In this document: positions 8,979 to 63,000 of the stretch, in pieces
Numbering within the stretch: position 1 is the stretch's first letter
How the letters are laid out: every line of letters begins with the position of its first letter
NCBI GenBank assembly: GCA_951406725.2
Contig: OX597816.1
Coordinates: 434,001 to 498,000, forward strand
DNA length: 64,000 nt
Reading direction: 5' to 3'
Origin: Octopus vulgaris
Lineage: Eukaryota
Position numbers: made by a program

Positions 8979-11900
8979 ACACACACATTGATCGAGATGT
9001 CCCTTTTAAATGACAAAAATACTTTCGCAAAAAAAAGATGGAGAGACAATTTATAGAACATTATTATCAAAATCTATGTTCTAACAGGATTAAACATTGT
9101 AACAAAAAGAAATAAAATCACTTACCATGATAGTTATATCCAAATTTATTAATGCCTCTACGGTCAAAGCCCCTGGAATTGTAACCAAACTGATCATAAC
9201 CAGATCTACTTATGATTTTCACATGAATATTAGGATTTTTCTCAACAGCACTTAACTCTGACACATGCAAATGAGCAGTTTTGTTGCATGGTCGACCCTT
9301 TCCTGGAGGACTGTAAGTCACACAGAGGTCATTTTCTAGATCAAGAACATCCAATGGTGCCGTATTGAATGGAACCATTGGAATATTTCCATAGGCTGCT
9401 GGGAATTTAAATTTGTTGTGGCCCATTTTCTGCCAGGTGGCATATAATCTGTCAATGTAGGTTTGAATGATGTAGAAGAGAGGGTCGTAAGCCATTGCGG
9501 TCGTTGACATATCACCACCAACAAAGGAATGGATATACGCTGCAAATGTCTCCAGAAGTTCACTCATTTCAATGAAATCTGTTTTACTGATGGCAGCAGC
9601 AACATCAAGCATTGTTGGGACCTCAACAATATGGCTGAAATTCCTTTTCAGGCATGGTTTCCAAGCATTACTGTTAAAAAAAAAGAACAATTAATAATAT
9701 AAAGGAGCCTGAGAAGTATTAATTGCCCTTAATTAAATCCCATTTTAATCAAATCTTAAATTATTCTTTTTTATGTTGACCACACTTTTTAAAATCTTAA
9801 GTCTTAACAAAGCAAAAAATAGGTTCATTCAAGCTTAATTTTAAGATTAGTGGTCATTATCATGTTAATCTTAAGATCTCAAGTAAATGTTTTCCATTCG
9901 AATATAATAAAGATAGGATTTTTGAGAAGTAAAATGATGTTTATATTCAAATGGATGCAGTTTTGTGGCAATAGTGCTTAAAAGAAGATTACTCTGTGTA
10001 CACACAGAAACACACACACACAGCACATTCAGGAAAGATATACAATACTAGAAACCAAGCCCCAAACACAAGCTACATGAGAAGCTTGGTCTTTTGACCC
10101 ATGTAGCAGGACAAAATCTTCAAATAAGAACAGACACAGACCATGGTGACACATTCAAGTGATGCCAGCATGGAAAACAAACAGAAAATAATGATGATGA
10201 CTGTGGGAAATACTGATTAATTGTTCCTATAATTAATTAAAATTCCTTTTTAAGAGTAACATGCAAAAACAACATTAAATAGTCACCTGTCACCAAAAGC
10301 ATGATCTGGAACACACCATCCCCATCCATCTCCTCCAAAGAAATTGGGCTGCCAGATGATGGCTTCTGAGAAGTTAGCAGCATCAGTTGTGAAATCAAAA
10401 TATGGTAAGGTAACGTGGCAGTCTATCTCTTTCAGTTGCAATTCAACAAGCTGCAAAAACTGGCGATGCCATGGAAGATAGAATGCCCCACCATGTGAAT
10501 GCATGTGATGAACCATGTAGAGGTCTCTGTATTTATTCCAGATATTGTCTATTCCTGACAAACGAAGCTGGGAAATAGCCTGCTGCAGTTTGGTCATCTC
10601 TTCCCAGGTGAAATCTCGAATTTCTTTGCGAAGAATTAAGTCAGAACATCTAGGAAAATATAAGCAAGTTCCAATGAGATGAAGAATTTTACAGACGGTA
10701 ATAATGGTTTCAAGCTTTGGCACAAGGCCGGCAGCTTTGTGGGGAGGAGTCTGTCAATTACACCAAGTAATTGACTGGTACTATTTTATAGACCCTGAAA
10801 CATCTACAAGTCTTGAACTCAAACTAATAACATATTCACAAATGAATAAACGAGATTCAAATTAATTCTTTTTTAATTTTCTTTTGACAATTTTCTTCAA
10901 ATTTTCCAGAACAATATTATAAATTCATTAAAAAGTTTTTATATTTAATTCCAGTTTCTAATTAGTATATATATCATCTATCACATTTTTTTAAAGTCTT
11001 GTTACCATATTTCTCTTTAGATACACTGCTTTGTTTCATTTCATTTTGAAAATAATGAAAAAGCTAATTTTGTTATTATTAGTGTTTGGAGTATAAATTA
11101 GTGTGACATTTTGAAAGATGGTTTTAATTTAGAGCAATTTAAACAGGAAGTTTGTATCATAGAACCAGGAGTAGTCTCAGGTCGGTTAATAACAAAAGAG
11201 TTAACATATTTGTATTCTTCGAAATACCAATTGCCATATTTAGTAATGTACACTACTTAAATGTTCTTTTATTCTTAATATTTTGATATAAGGTGGAGAG
11301 CTGGCATTTTGTCTGTCTTTACATTCTGAGTTCAAATCCTGCCAAAGTCAACTTTGCCTTTCATCCTTTCAGGGGTCATTAAAATATAATCAAGTTTCCC
11401 CCTCCTCCAAAATTTCAAGCCCTGTGCCTATCATGGAAAGAATTATTGATATTTTGATATGAATAAGGCAGTGAGTTGGCAGAATTGTTAGCAGACTGAA
11501 TGCTTAGCAGCCTTTTGTCCGTCTTCATGTTGTGAGTTCAAATTCTGTTGGGGTTGACTTTGCCTGTCATCTTTTCAGGGTCAATGAAATAAGAATCAGC
11601 TGAACACTGGGGTTGATTTAATCAACTCAGCCCCTTCCTCCAAACTCGCTGGCCTTGTGCCAAAATTCGAATCCAATATTTTGAGAGGAATATTCTTCTA
11701 ATATAGAATATCTATTACAAATGACAAGTAATTGTAATTATTATATTGTGAAAAATAAGGAATTATACTATTTTTATTACCTGCAGGAAATATCAAATTT
11801 GTATGTCAAGCCAAGTAAAACCATGGCCATGCATACATACAGGCATATCCTTTACGGCCATGCCCCACCTCCCTCACAATCCGTTTACCCAACCTCCATC

Positions 11901-60000: not shown

Positions 60001-63000
60001 TGGGTTTGTGCCAGGGAAAAGCACCACTGATGCCATATTTCTGCCAAGGCAGCTGCAGGAGAATTACATAGCCAAAGATAAACCTCTGTAGTTGGCCTTT
60101 CTTGACTAGGAGAAAGCCTTTGGCAGGGTCCTCCAATCCCTTATCTGGTGGTCAATGCGGAAACTAGGGATAAACAAGAGGTTGGGGAGTGCTGTAGAAG
60201 CCATGTACAAGGATGTTACCAGTAAAGTGAGGGTTGGCAATGAGAACTGTGAAGAATTCAGGCTACAAGTAGGGGTTCACCAAGGATCGGTGCTCAGCCC
60301 CTTCTTGTTCACTATAGTCCTCCTGGTAATAACAGAGGAATTTAAAGATAGGCTGACTCTGGGAGCTCCTCTATGCTGATGACCTTGCTCTTATAGCTGA
60401 ATCACTAGCAGAACTAGAGAAGTTCCAGGTATGGAAGCAAGGTCTAGAATCAAAGGGTCTTAGAGTTAACCTAGCAAAAACCAAAGTATTACTAAGTAGG
60501 AAGTCACGTAAATGCGCCCTGGTGTCATGCAAATGGCACCTGTACCAGTGGCACATAATAGCACCTATTGCACTTTCAGAGTGGCTGGTATTAGGAAGGG
60601 CATCCAGCCGTAGAAAACCATGTCAAATCAGACTGGAGTCTGGTGCAGCCTTCCAGCCTTGCCAGCCCAGTGAAACTGTGCAACCTATACCAGCATGGAC
60701 AACAGGCATAAAATGGTGATAATATTTTACTATGTTATATTTGATAAAAGGAATCTTTTCCAAAATATAATAGAATCATCAAACAACTTATGTAAGATGA
60801 TATAATATCTTCCTTTATTGACATGTTTTGCCTGACAACTGCATGGCTTGAAGGTTTTCTTAAAATATTTACATTATTTACGTGTAACCATGCTTCAAGC
60901 AAATTGCAGTACTCTTCATACTTTATTTGACTATGTTAAAAGTACATAAAGTACACATTTATTTTTTTATAGACAATAATATTACTATATCAGTCATTAT
61001 ACTAACAAATCTCTTGATAATTTGAGTGTTTCATTAACATTTTCCTATCCAGAAGGATGCTTTCAACATAACAGCCATCTACATGTATTCCATAAGTTTG
61101 TTTTATTCATCAACTTTTAAATATTTAATCCTTTTTCTGTTTTCATTTTCTTATCTCATAGATTCTCTTCGCTCATTAACCAATCACAATATTTCACTGC
61201 CATTAACAACAAACAAAATACATAAACATTTTGATAATCCTTCTGCCACAATAGCCTTGGTTTATTTCCTACAGTGTCTTGCAATTTGAAACTTTTCAAA
61301 CCTCTTCTTCTTTTCATACAATATATTCCCATATCCTTTGCTTGCTCAATGTTTCTTTTCTGACACCCTATATCCAATATTTTTCTGTTTATTTCTAACT
61401 GAAGTTCTCCATTACACGCTTAAAGTAATGCTTCTCTGTTATCTCAGTCTGATATTTCTAAAATAATAAGACTCACTGCCTATGTGATTATTTGTTCCAA
61501 CACTGTTTCATATCTGCCCAGAATAACAGACCTCGACAAATGGATCCCACAAACTCACTGAAATCATCATCATTATTCAACACTACTTTCCATGTTAGCA
61601 CAGGTTGAAGGAGTTGTCATGGTCTGATTTATTTCTTATTGGGAGCTAATGCTCCTTAAAAACTAGTGTTATTTGGCAAGGTTTCTACAGTTGAATCCCC
61701 TTTCTATTTCCAACCACTTTACAGAGTGGCACCAATGCTAGACAGGATGACTGGTCCTCAGGGAAACAATACCAAAGACACCTCACACTCCTACACTTTG
61801 CCTATTCACTTACTGTAGAGAGGTAACCTCACTTGATATTGACCTGTACAAGGCACAGGCAGTGGGGTGCCTTGAAGATAGTAAAAAAAGAGGAAAATAC
61901 TCAGTAATCGAAGGTATGTTGACCAAGGAAGGGAACAGGAGAGGGAGTAATGGTCAGAGATGGGTAATTGATGGGGATGGATATGTTTGAATATTTTCAC
62001 TACTATTCTCATTAACCAACTTGAAACTAATTAAGACATTAAGTGAAAACATTGAAAAATGGTAAATCTGTAAAAATAACAACTTGACAAATCAGAGAAT
62101 AACTTCACTTTCAGATTCTTGATTTAACCCTTTCATTATTAAATTTTTACTGAAATGCACTGCTTTTGTTGCAATTAATTTTGAAAACAATGTTGAATTT
62201 AGTATAATAATTGTCATTATTAATCTTTCGGTTATTATATTTCTGTGGCTTCATTTAATTTTGAAAACTATGAGGAATTTAGGGTTGGGGTAGTAGTAGG
62301 CACGGTTGTGTGATAAGAAGTTTGCTTCCCAAAACCTGTCTCCAGGTTCAGTCTCACTGCATGGCACCTTGGGCTTATCTTCTACTATAGCATCAAACCA
62401 ACCAAAGCCTTATGAGTGGATTTGATAGAAACTGAAAGAAGCTCATCGTATCATCATTTAACGTCCGCTTTCCATGCTAGCATGGGTTGGATGATTTGAC
62501 TGAGGACTGGTGAACCAGATGGCTGCACCAGGCTCCAATCTGATCTGACAGAATTTCTACAGCTCGATGCCCTTCCTAACACCAACCACTCCGAGAGTGT
62601 TGTGGGTGCTTTTATGTGCCACTGGCACGAGGGCCAGTTTGGCGGTACTGGCAATGGCCACGCTCAAATGGTGTTTTTAATGTGCCACCTGCACAGGAGC
62701 CAGTCCAGCAGCATTGGCAACAACCCCGCTCGAATGTTTATATATATATATATATTGTGAGTATGCATGCATATGTATATATACTTGAGTATATGCATCT
62801 TTGTGTGTGTGTTGGTGTGTTTATGTCCCTATAATTTATAACAGGCAAAAGAGACTGATAGAATAAGTACCAGGCTTAAAAAGAAAAACGTCCTGGGGTC
62901 AGTTCATTTAACTAAAAACTCAAAGGAGAGTGCCCCAGCATGACCACAGCCTGACTGAAACAGGTAAAAGATGATATTCACCCATTAATTACTAAATTCC

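What the first reader, a model, noticed from the sequence alone, without database searches (positions are those of the whole stretch)
9126..62012. Secreted mosaic protein: thrombospondin/NELL-like N-terminus fused to EGF, Kunitz and a tyrosinase-fold domain
Seen: eleven exons join in frame with matching intron phases (1,0,1,0,0,1,1,0,2,2). The order is SP-TSPN-coiled coil-vWC-EGF-Kunitz-GACC/vWC-like-tyrosinase fold-GYDxx repeats. Known: TSPN-coil-vWC is the oligomerising head of thrombospondin-1/NELL, and molluscan tyrosinases act in pigment and matrix cross-linking. I do not recall this domain combination being characterised. Inference: an oligomeric extracellular-matrix or scaffold protein, possibly in skin, egg case, beak or sucker matrix. 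The six-frame track shows only fragments of it.
Basis: partly seen in the sequence, partly recalled or inferred. Interest (0 to 1): 0.8.

Follow-up and report, generated by a model that had tools for sequence, protein, structure and literature searches.

The report
Front part of octopus Kielin-like gene
The window holds ten real exons from the front quarter of a giant, already annotated octopus gene related to the BMP regulator Kielin/KCP, and its tyrosinase-like domain has lost most of the histidines that normally hold copper.

Summary
Their translations, taken exon by exon (801 full codons), are exact substrings of residues 116-921 of the public protein "chordin isoform X2 [Octopus vulgaris]" (3875 aa). 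The public exon 1 and everything after residue 922 lie outside the window.

The domain calls hold: TSPN, coiled coil, VWC, EGF, Kunitz, half VWC, tyrosinase fold and G-Y/F-D/N pentapeptides. But this is not a stand-alone mosaic protein. It is the head of a Kielin/KCP-type protein that continues with a second Kunitz/tyrosinase-like module, about 24 VWC repeats and a VWD domain.

The same layout is annotated in molluscs, a brachiopod, arthropods, echinoderms, tunicates, hagfish, sharks, sturgeon, coelacanth and a newt. Every animal tyrosinase-like module examined keeps only 0-3 of the 6 copper-ligand histidines (octopus module 1 keeps 3), so matrix cross-linking is unlikely.

The gene model is already public. 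The embedded degenerate tyrosinase modules appear undescribed in print, apart from one passing remark.

The parts
52622..53166 (-). Exon 2 of the public model (P0010 residues 115/116-296): thrombospondin-N-terminal-like (TSPN, LamG-fold) domain. Phase-1 acceptor, phase-0 donor.
   Evidence: The translation is an exact substring of P0010. Pfam alone finds nothing. A profile of 16 relatives hits NELL2 at 1.2e-18, NEL at 4e-16, the TSP-1 N-domain at 5e-9 and collagen IX NC4 at 0.006. The AF2 model has pLDDT 80.5, and its top Foldseek hit is the TSP-1 N-domain (E 3.2e-6, TMq 0.62). Atlas lead: ConA-like/Laminin_G_3, score 0.95.
49485..49551 (-). Exon 3 (P0010 297-318, plus 1 base): short linker, GLVYKAKLYNHIIKGFPWTCPK.
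   Evidence: No Pfam match.
41446..41549 (-). Exon 4 (P0010 320-353): first part of the heptad-repeat coiled coil.
   Evidence: In the three-copy model the in-register contacts fall at 329, 332/333, 336, 339/340, 343, 346/347, 350 and 353/354.
31259..31390 (-). Exon 5 (P0010 354-397): end of the coiled coil, the Cys-Glu-Cys motif, and the first half of a VWC domain.
   Evidence: Pfam VWC E 3.8e-5, 24.3 bits, below the curated cut-off of 27.6. An HMM built from this block finds 14 further places in P0010..
30950..30998 (-). Exon 6 (P0010 398-413, plus 1 base): rest of the VWC domain, EGKPDCKVRADIPGCS.
   Evidence: At 16 aa it is too short for a Pfam scan of its own. In P0001 the VWC match spans 373-427.
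28872..29093 (-). Exon 7 (P0010 415-487): EGF-like domain and the first part of a Kunitz-like domain.
   Evidence: Pfam EGF 3.4e-6 and Kunitz_BPTI 2e-4..
17206..17348 (-). Exon 8 (P0010 489-535): the second part of the Kunitz-like domain, the GACC motif and a linker. The donor GTCTGT is weak.
   Evidence: Pfam Kunitz_BPTI 0.0031 over profile positions 35-50..
12591..12841 (-). Exon 9 (P0010 536-618): Cys-rich stretch whose last 30 residues resemble the first half (SD1) of a VWC repeat.
   Evidence: No Pfam match. hhalign against two VWC blocks gives probability 42-88% and E 2.9e-6 to 2.7e-4 (75-88% against the array repeat). Controls against EGF and Kunitz blocks give 2.7% or less.
10287..10649 (-). 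Exon 10 (P0010 620-739): the CuA half of tyrosinase-like domain 1.
   Evidence: Pfam Tyrosinase 2.9e-12. 25 PDB hemocyanin or tyrosinase sequences match at E up to 0.01. Ligand positions A1/A2/A3 read Y/H/H.
9126..9670 (-). Exon 11 (P0010 741-921, plus 1 base): the CuB half of tyrosinase-like domain 1, then five G-Y/F/I-D/N-x-x pentapeptide units. It ends at donor G|GTAAGT (phase 1). If the donor is not used, the frame stops two codons later (stop at 9120-9118).
   Evidence: Pfam Tyrosinase 2.1e-8. 28 PDB sequences match. Ligand positions B1/B2/B3 read A/H/Q. Repeats. Donor.
61814..62012 (-). I do not accept it as part of the gene on present evidence.
   Evidence: Sequence. No Pfam match. No likeness to the public exon 1. 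Such frames occur at chance level. An alternative first exon cannot be excluded.

Best explanation
The window carries exons 2-11 of the Octopus vulgaris gene that RefSeq calls 'chordin isoform X2'. This is the octopus member of the Kielin/KCP (kielin cysteine-rich BMP regulator) family in its long form.

The window encodes only the head of the protein: a TSPN domain, a parallel coiled coil closed by a Cys-x-Cys motif, one VWC, one EGF, a Kunitz-like domain, a half VWC, a tyrosinase-fold domain and the start of a G-Y/F-D/N pentapeptide run. Outside the window the same protein continues with a second EGF/Kunitz/tyrosinase-like module, about 24 VWC (chordin-type) repeats and a VWD domain.

Shown here: the exon structure, identity with the public protein, the homology of each domain, and the loss of copper-ligand histidines.

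Inferred:
- The protein is secreted. The signal peptide would lie in the exon 1 that is outside the window.
- The coiled coil and its cysteines make it an oligomer.
- The VWC array binds BMP/TGF-beta-type ligands, as in Kielin, KCP and crossveinless-2.
- The TSPN head ties it to matrix or cell-surface glycans.
- The tyrosinase-like domains do not oxidise phenols and serve as binding or spacer modules.

My odds: that this is exons 2-11 of this gene, about 0.9. That it belongs to the Kielin/KCP family, about 0.8. That the tyrosinase-like domain is non-catalytic, about 0.75. That it acts as a BMP modulator, about 0.5.
For: - Exon 2 alone found an O. bimaculoides protein (P0001, 985 aa, 98% identity). 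It was the only protein with E up to 0.001 among 589 candidates.
- The exon 2 search of 1.84 billion representatives gave 8 proteins. The best was Argonauta hians 'kielin/chordin-like protein', 3774 aa (P0002).
- Ten exon translations (801 aa) are exact substrings of P0010 116-921.
- Pfam on P0010 finds VWC (24 stretches), Tyrosinase (2), VWD, TILa and VWC2L.
- Of the 25 proteins found with P0002 residues 1-900, 21 are giants of 2082-5988 aa carrying PF00264 plus VWC, spread over molluscs, a brachiopod, tunicates, chelicerates, a crustacean, echinoderms and a newt. Family HMMs find at least one Kunitz-like and one tyrosinase-like module in all 21, TSPN in 15 of 21 and VWD in 16 of 21.
- With the newt protein as query, 73 proteins were found. 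Twelve vertebrate entries carry PF00264: newt, coelacanth, sturgeon, seven shark, ray or chimaera entries, a characiform fish and a hagfish.
- The X. tropicalis KCP model (2327 aa) and a short coelacanth model have the same TSPN, coil, VWC array and VWD but no Kunitz or tyrosinase module. So head and tail belong to one gene.
- Histidines: none of the 32 family modules and none of the 24 further animal modules has more than 3 of 6 ligand histidines. In the same alignments, 8 of 8 and 7 of 7 hemocyanin units have 6 of 6.
- Coiled coil: three copies of P0010 318-378 scored 0.78, against 0.05 for the best of 3 controls. That mark was reached by 21 of 30 proteins solved as pairs of one chain and 0 of 23 solved as single chains (microbes). 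On eukaryotes it was reached by 17 of 29, but only 1 of 7 with no older solved relative, and by 0 of 30 single chains. The runs agree in at least 86% of contacts and the partner's pLDDT is at least 71. The job used three copies, unlike the two-copy calibration, and the pass may come from memory of solved coiled coils.
Against: - All whole-protein evidence rests on automatic gene models. I saw no transcript, peptide or expression data for octopus.
- The O. bimaculoides model stops at 985 aa, and some bivalve models lack a VWD. The giant models could therefore be over-joined in places.
- Reading through the exon 11 donor gives a stop after two codons, so a short product ending in the window is possible.
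- Three histidines (A2, A3, B2) remain, and other histidines lie nearby in the stretch VHHMHSH. An unusual metal site is not excluded.
- BMP binding is inferred only from family likeness. The architecture of cloned Xenopus Kielin is recalled, because the paper was not held.
- No signal-peptide predictor was available.
Confidence: 0.75

Rival explanations
1. One reading: a stand-alone, roughly 900-aa secreted mosaic protein. It would start at 62012 and end with the GYD repeats near 9126, and act as a matrix or scaffold protein with a working tyrosinase domain.
For: If the exon 11 donor is not used, the frame ends after two more codons. The O. bimaculoides model has only 985 aa. The candidate exon 1 has an ATG, a hydrophobic stretch, and a strong GTAAGT donor in the right phase.
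Against: The identical O. vulgaris protein and the Argonauta protein both continue through this point. P0001 itself splices past 9126 and ends where P0002 simply carries on. The candidate exon 1 matches nothing and is no more than chance gives. Only 3 of 6 copper ligands remain. All 21 giant relatives carry VWC repeats, and 16 of the 21 also end in a VWD domain.
Confidence: 0.07
2. The giant proteins are prediction artefacts that fuse neighbouring genes: a TSPN-to-tyrosinase gene, a second tyrosinase gene, and a separate kielin/chordin-like gene.
For: All the models are automatic. Shorter models exist for the same species or clade: coelacanth 2337 aa against 3479 aa, O. bimaculoides 985 aa, Mactra 2082 aa without a VWD. 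One entry, P0011 at 5988 aa, looks like a duplicated join of the Lingula protein.
Against: The same collinear order is predicted in more than 40 entries from different phyla and submitters. The TSPN/coil/VWC head and the VWC array/VWD tail sit in one protein even where the modules are absent, as in the X. tropicalis KCP model of 2327 aa. The modules therefore lie between two parts of one gene. The head exons and the module exons in the window join in matching phases.
Confidence: 0.1
3. The tyrosinase-like domain is a working phenol oxidase with an unusual copper site, and it cross-links or pigments the matrix.
For: The tyrosinase fold is clearly present: Pfam 2.9e-21 on P0001, 2.9e-12 and 2.1e-8 on the two exons. 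Three canonical histidines remain, with extra histidines close by in VHHMHSH. Ascidian Tuphoxin shows that tyrosinase domains do occur in multidomain matrix proteins (PMC9395347; passages read).
Against: Positions A1, B1 and B3 read Y, A and Q in octopus. B1 is histidine in none of the 56 animal modules examined. The hemocyanin controls score 6 of 6. A unicellular relative with Kunitz plus tyrosinase keeps 6 of 6, so the method does detect intact sites.
Confidence: 0.07

Closest known systems
Kielin (Xenopus) / KCP, kielin cysteine-rich BMP regulator (vertebrates)
   Same: It has a TSPN head, a coiled coil, a long array of chordin-type VWC repeats and a C-terminal VWD. The X. tropicalis KCP model has exactly these parts in the same order. 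The newt KCP query finds P0010 at E 4.4e-234. Databases give this name to the Argonauta, Lingula, echinoderm and spider relatives.
   Different: The octopus protein carries two EGF/Kunitz/half-VWC/tyrosinase-like/GYD-repeat modules between the head and the array. The Xenopus model examined has none. Mouse KCP likewise has none, but that is recalled and was not examined here. RefSeq names the octopus protein 'chordin'. BMP enhancement by KCP is known from frog and mouse work (PMC6750614, passages read) and was not tested for octopus.
NELL1/NELL2/NEL and thrombospondin-1 (oligomerising head)
   Same: The TSPN domain is followed by a coiled coil and a VWC. These are the best sequence-profile and fold matches of exon 2.
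   Different: Pfam on P0010 finds no thrombospondin type 1 or type 3 repeats, no thrombospondin C-terminal domain and no NELL-type run of EGF repeats. The rest of the protein is of Kielin type.
Tuphoxin, the ascidian tunic phenol oxidase (PMC9395347)
   Same: A secreted multidomain protein in which EGF-type modules precede a tyrosinase domain. Its authors proposed that it acts in the extracellular matrix (passages read).
   Different: Tuphoxin has a TSP1 repeat, no TSPN, Kunitz or VWC array, and an active site that its authors treat as potentially functional. The octopus domain keeps 3 of 6 ligands.
Molluscan hemocyanin functional units and tyrosinases (type-3 copper proteins)
   Same: These are the best PDB sequence matches of exons 10 and 11, and they share Pfam PF00264.
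   Different: Hemocyanin units keep all six histidines (15 of 15 units). The Kielin-type modules keep 0-3.
Crossveinless-2 / BMPER
   Same: A VWC repeat array followed by a VWD, with BMP binding through VWC subdomain 1 (PMC2944808, passages read).
   Different: It has five VWC repeats only, and no TSPN, coiled coil, Kunitz or tyrosinase-like domain (recalled, not tested here).

Membership tests
Kielin/KCP | N-terminal thrombospondin-N-like (TSPN) domain | tested here: met
   The profile of exon 2 and its relatives hits NELL2 at 1.2e-18 and the TSP-1 N-domain at 5e-9. The top fold match is the TSP-1 N-domain. The same HMM finds the head of X. tropicalis KCP at 39-224. That Kielin has such a head is recalled.
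Kielin/KCP | Long array of chordin-type VWC repeats | tested here: met
   There are 24 Pfam VWC stretches in P0010, which is identical to the window over residues 116-921. Only one VWC and one half VWC lie inside the window.
Kielin/KCP | C-terminal VWD domain | tested here: met
   Pfam VWD at P0010 3553-3699, E 6.7e-32. It lies outside the window.
Kielin/KCP | Orthology to vertebrate KCP (tree or reciprocal best hits) | tested here: inconclusive
   One-way searches link the two. No tree or reciprocal test was made.
Kielin/KCP | Binds BMPs and changes BMP/TGF-beta signalling | not testable with these tools
   This needs binding and signalling assays.
Tyrosinase / type-3 copper proteins | Tyrosinase central-domain fold (PF00264) | tested here: met
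   Exon 10 scores 2.9e-12 and exon 11 scores 2.1e-8. P0001 scores 2.9e-21 over 659-821.
Tyrosinase / type-3 copper proteins | Six copper-ligand histidines (three for CuA, three for CuB) | tested here: not met
   Octopus module 1 reads Y,H,H / A,H,Q, which is 3 of 6. Module 2 has 1 of 6. Hemocyanin controls have 6 of 6. Which histidine of the HH pair is the ligand is recalled.
Tyrosinase / type-3 copper proteins | Phenol oxidase activity or oxygen binding | not testable with these tools
   This needs a copper analysis and an enzyme assay.
Thrombospondin / NELL | TSPN, coiled coil and VWC head | tested here: met
Thrombospondin / NELL | TSP type 1/type 3 repeats and C-terminal domain (thrombospondins), or a run of EGF repeats with interspersed VWC in a protein of about 800 aa (NELL) | tested here: not met
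   Pfam on P0010 at E up to 0.01 lists only VWC, Tyrosinase, VWD, TILa and VWC2L_2nd.
Kunitz/BPTI inhibitors | Kunitz domain (PF00014) | tested here: met
   P0001 scores 5.9e-14 over 459-504. The exon 7 part scores 2e-4 and the exon 8 part 0.0031.
Kunitz/BPTI inhibitors | Six cysteines forming three disulfides, and a basic P1 residue in trypsin-type inhibitors | tested here: not met
   Octopus reads NPYV where the family consensus reads NPCV, and no Cys follows four residues after the fifth Cys. The residue after the second Cys is His. The BPTI numbering and the P1 position are recalled.
Chordin (the RefSeq name) | CHRD domains between VWC repeats | tested here: not met
   No CHRD family appears among the Pfam hits of P0010 at E up to 0.01.

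The most novel reading that the evidence does not exclude
The long, ancestral form of the BMP regulator Kielin/KCP carries one or two Kunitz plus tyrosinase-fold modules. Their copper sites were already degenerate before protostomes and deuterostomes split: 0-3 of 6 histidines in all 56 animal modules examined, and CuB-His1 in none. This would be an ancient, conserved pseudo-tyrosinase built into a morphogen regulator. It is kept in octopus, bivalves, snails, brachiopods, chelicerates, echinoderms, tunicates, hagfish, sharks, sturgeon, coelacanth and newt, but is absent from the frog and amniote models that have been studied. It would therefore have a non-oxidative job, such as ligand, matrix or metal binding, that has not been described.
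Probability: 0.5. Interest if true: 0.55.

Novelty: new variant of a known kind. Interest (0 to 1): 0.4.

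Why it matters
For the scan, what looked like an unrecorded mosaic protein is the front quarter of a gene already in RefSeq. Nothing new is gained at the level of sequence or gene model.

For biology, the characterised Kielin/KCP proteins of frog and mouse are plain VWC arrays. The octopus gene and its many relatives show that the widespread form of this BMP regulator also holds Kunitz and tyrosinase-fold modules that have lost their copper ligands. 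If those modules turn out to have a binding role, that would add an unstudied layer to extracellular BMP control and a clear case of an ancient pseudoenzyme.

The finding also warns against counting such entries as tyrosinases in surveys of mollusc pigment, shell or adhesive enzymes. One such survey met them as outliers (PMC11667028; passage read).

Tried and rejected
- Pfam on exon 2 alone and phmmer of exon 2 against PDB sequences (one irrelevant hit at E 0.18) gave nothing. Only the profile of relatives and the fold model settled the TSPN call.
- The Atlas search of the GYD-repeat tail (P0001 893-985) gave no usable hit. The nature of the G-Y/F-D/N pentapeptide repeats stays open.
- Sensitive tblastn for the public exon 1 and for the exon after 9126 found only chance matches and the repeats' self-likeness. 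Both lie outside the window.
It could not be searched among proteins above 2000 aa, because the 'longer' mode stops there and no search was left.
- The listing of cluster members for P0001 was not sent because the shared database was off. The other members of its cluster are unseen.
- The Xenopus Kielin paper and an MCB paper on KCP were not held. Kielin's published architecture is therefore recalled and cross-checked only on the X. tropicalis model.
- Searches for print descriptions: kielin + tyrosinase gave 14 papers, with one passing remark. 'Tyrosinase domain'/VWC/chordin-like gave 39 papers at two terms, none on this fusion by title or abstract. Kielin + Kunitz gave 3 papers, none relevant. 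The pseudoenzyme terms gave 0.
- I did not translate, search or fold a joined model of the window's exons. Every window query was a single exon, and all whole-protein evidence comes from public proteins returned by the searches.
- Supplementary tables of the argonaut egg-case preprint were closed. They might show whether its abundant 'kielin/chordin-like' contigs belong to this gene (passages read).
- The stoichiometry of the coiled coil was not explored. Only three copies were tried.

Full report
**What is in the window.** The window has no N and a G+C content of about 32-47% per 2-kb block. It is full of microsatellites and transposon fragments. On the minus strand, stop-to-stop frames showed five obvious coding pieces with EGF, Kunitz and tyrosinase matches. 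A search with exon 2 alone among longer proteins returned one protein with E up to 0.001 out of 589 candidates. It is an Octopus bimaculoides 'EGF-like domain-containing protein' of 985 aa at 98% identity (P0001).

Mapping P0001 back by tblastn gave ten exon matches at 88-100% identity. Nothing matched its residues 1-112 or 923-985, even with very loose settings.

**Exon structure.** From the bases at each border the exons are 53166-52622, 49551-49485, 41549-41446, 31390-31259, 30998-30950, 29093-28872, 17348-17206, 12841-12591, 10649-10287 and 9670-9126.
- All ten have AG acceptors and GT donors.
- The nine introns measure 3070, 7935, 10055, 260, 1856, 11523, 4364, 1941 and 616 bases.
- In one search I set the end of exon 11 one base too low.
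- If that donor is not used, the frame stops after two more codons.

**Whose gene it is.** A search with exon 2 across 1.84 billion representatives found 8 proteins. The best was a 3774-aa protein (P0002). A later search named it kielin/chordin-like protein of Argonauta hians, and also returned 'chordin isoform X2 [Octopus vulgaris]' of 3875 aa (P0010).

Translated one exon at a time, the full codons of the ten exons (801 aa) are exact substrings of P0010 at positions 116-296, 297-318, 320-353, 354-397, 398-413, 415-487, 489-535, 536-618, 620-739 and 741-921. The single missing residues are the split codons.

So the window is, or is indistinguishable from, O. vulgaris, and the gene model is already public. 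P0010 residues 1-114 and 923-3875 have no match in the window. All whole-protein evidence comes from these public proteins.

The frame from ATG 62012 to the donor at 61814 has no Pfam match. It has no likeness to the public first exon, which holds a typical hydrophobic stretch, MSCILIFSILCILSTQVHA. Frames of this kind (ATG, at least 15 codons, phase-1 GTRAGT) occur twice on the minus strand and twice on the plus strand of 53167-64000. I treat it as unsupported. An alternative 5' exon cannot be excluded.

**Domains, exon by exon.**
- *Exon 2.* Pfam and phmmer against PDB found nothing for this exon alone. The Atlas pointed to ConA-like/Laminin_G_3 clusters at 0.95. A 16-row alignment of relatives (A2) used as a profile hit NELL2 (1.2e-18, full length), NEL (4e-16), the thrombospondin-1 N-domain (5e-9) and collagen IX NC4 (0.006). 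Those made up the whole list of 7 distinct sequences. Three of the 16 members reach Laminin_G families in Pfam, and the window's own does not. An AF2 model (pLDDT 80.5, pTM 0.74) has thrombospondin-1 N-domain entries as its best PDB fold matches (E 3.2e-6, TMq 0.62), followed by NEL and collagen IX NC4. TSPN is confirmed.
- *Exons 4-5.* These carry a heptad repeat that ends in Cys-Glu-Cys. Three copies of P0010 318-378 were modelled as an in-register parallel bundle. The score was 0.78 against 0.05 for the best of 3 controls. That mark was reached by 21 of 30 proteins solved as pairs of one chain and 0 of 23 solved as single chains. On eukaryotes it was reached by 17 of 29, but only 1 of 7 without an older solved relative. 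The runs agree in at least 86% of contacts and pLDDT is at least 71. The job used three copies, unlike the calibration, and the pass may reflect memory of solved coiled coils.
- *Exons 5-6.* VWC: 3.8e-5 for exon 5, below Pfam's cut-off. An HMM built from this block finds 14 further places in P0010.
- *Exon 7.* EGF (3.4e-6) and the first part of a Kunitz domain (2e-4).
- *Exon 8.* The second part of the Kunitz domain (0.0031). The whole domain scores 5.9e-14 in P0001. The octopus copy lacks the first cysteine that the family consensus keeps.
- *Exon 9.* No Pfam match. Its last 30 residues align with the first half of a VWC repeat (hhalign probability 75-88% against the array repeat, 42-63% against the block of exons 5-6). 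Controls against EGF and Kunitz blocks give 2.7% or less.
- *Exons 10 and 11.* The two halves of a tyrosinase domain (2.9e-12 and 2.1e-8). Their best PDB matches are molluscan hemocyanins and bacterial tyrosinases.
- *End of exon 11.* Five G-Y/F/I-D/N-x-x units, which continue in the next exon of P0010.

**The whole protein and its family.** Pfam on P0010 finds 24 VWC stretches, two tyrosinase domains, a VWD, TILa and VWC2L, but no CHRD domain. The RefSeq name 'chordin' is therefore loose.

Of the 25 proteins found with the first 900 residues of the Argonauta protein, 21 are giants of 2082-5988 aa with tyrosinase and VWC. They come from cephalopods, bivalves, gastropods, Lingula, two ascidians, a spider, Limulus, a mantis shrimp, three echinoderms and a newt. 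The other four are a hemocyanin, an unnamed tyrosinase-only protein and two rotifer proteins.

HMMs cut from their alignment (A1) gave these counts among the 21:
- a Kunitz-like and a tyrosinase-like module in all 21;
- TSPN in 15 (the rest start later and look truncated);
- VWD in 16.

Protostomes and tunicates have two modules. Echinoderms, Limulus and the newt have one.

With the newt protein as query, 73 proteins came back. Long kielin/chordin-like models with a tyrosinase domain exist in coelacanth, sturgeon, sharks, rays, a chimaera, a characiform fish and a hagfish. Many frog, reptile and fish models lack it. The X. tropicalis model (2327 aa) and a short coelacanth model have the TSPN, coil, VWC array and VWD but no Kunitz or tyrosinase module. 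Head and tail therefore belong to one gene, and the modules lie between them.

**The copper site.** I aligned all modules with the functional units of a snail hemocyanin and read the six ligand columns.
- Octopus module 1 reads Y,H,H / A,H,Q (3 of 6). Module 2 reads Y,S,H / L,Q,V (1 of 6).
- None of the 32 family modules exceeds 3. None of the 24 further animal modules does either, and vertebrates have 2.
- CuB-His1 is never histidine in any animal module.
- The controls have 6 of 6 in 8 of 8 and 7 of 7 hemocyanin units.
- A unicellular-eukaryote protein with Kunitz, Kazal and tyrosinase domains has 6 of 6, and a Salpingoeca protein has 4 of 6.

The assignment of the second histidine of the HH pair as the ligand is from memory. 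A canonical two-copper site is thus absent, although nearby histidines leave an unusual site possible.

**How it most likely works.** By likeness to Kielin, KCP and crossveinless-2, the VWC array would bind BMP-type ligands outside the cell. KCP augments BMP signalling in frog (PMC6750614, passages). VWC subdomain 1 is the BMP-binding part in CV2 (PMC2944808, passages). The coiled coil and its cysteines would multiply the valency. The TSPN head would anchor the protein to matrix or cell surface, and the tyrosinase-like modules would be non-catalytic. All of this is inference; only the anatomy is shown.

One lead: kielin/chordin-like VWC contigs were the most abundant proteins in the argonaut egg-case matrix (bioRxiv 10.1101/2021.07.10.451900, passages). 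Whether they come from this gene could not be checked, because the supplements were closed.

**What is in print.** One survey of spiralian tyrosinases notes in passing very long sequences (over 3000 aa) with kielin/chordin-like domains (PMC11667028, one passage). Ascidian Tuphoxin joins EGF, a TSP1 repeat and a tyrosinase domain (PMC9395347, passages). My searches found no description of the Kielin-type fusion or of its lost histidines. The library lacks most subscription journals, and the Xenopus Kielin paper was not held.

**Verdict.** The unexplored part is the conserved, copper-site-degenerate tyrosinase module inside a BMP regulator. Interest 0.4.

Noticed in passing
window 35858-36542 (intron between exons 4 and 5): A near-perfect palindrome. 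The arms 35940-36198 and 36200-36458 (259 nt) are 99% complementary with 1 nt between them. Outer arms of 95 nt at 98% flank them. It shows up as the same 115-aa frame on both strands.
   Followed up: partly
window 19202-19687(+), 44230-45105(+), 55328-55819(-), 60110-60379(+), 55875-56755(+): Transposon fragments inside the introns and upstream. Four frames match reverse transcriptase (RVT_1). A Mos1/mariner-type element shows an HTH_48 domain and the Transposase_1 DDE part.
   Followed up: partly
window, many copies, e.g. 14553-15044, 20645-20962, 32033-32488, 45331-45618, 53805-54134: A short interspersed repeat recurs on both strands. Its translation repeatedly reads like ...[32 protein letters not shown].... 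It was not classified.
   Followed up: no
window 9118-9126: The exon 11 donor G|GTAAGT is followed in frame by a stop two codons later, so an unspliced or early-polyadenylated message would give a roughly 920-aa product. The O. bimaculoides model of 985 aa ends one exon later, at a point where the Argonauta protein simply continues.
   Followed up: partly
P0010 (public O. vulgaris protein): The RefSeq name 'chordin isoform X2' does not fit. Pfam finds no CHRD domain, and the architecture is that of kielin/chordin-like protein.
   Followed up: yes
P0090 and P0089 (unicellular eukaryotes): Proteins pairing a Kunitz domain with a tyrosinase domain also exist outside animals. One keeps all six copper histidines, and Salpingoeca 'mantle protein 9' keeps four. 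The Kunitz-tyrosinase pairing may be older than its capture by Kielin.
   Followed up: partly
P0011 (metaclust, 5988 aa): It repeats the Lingula protein's two modules with identical local strings, so it looks like a duplicated or mis-joined copy of P0017.
   Followed up: no
window 28872-29093 and 17206-17348 (Kunitz-like domain): The octopus copy has Tyr where the family consensus has the first Kunitz cysteine, and His at the position after the second cysteine. It is unlikely to be a classical trypsin-type inhibitor (the BPTI positions are recalled).
   Followed up: partly
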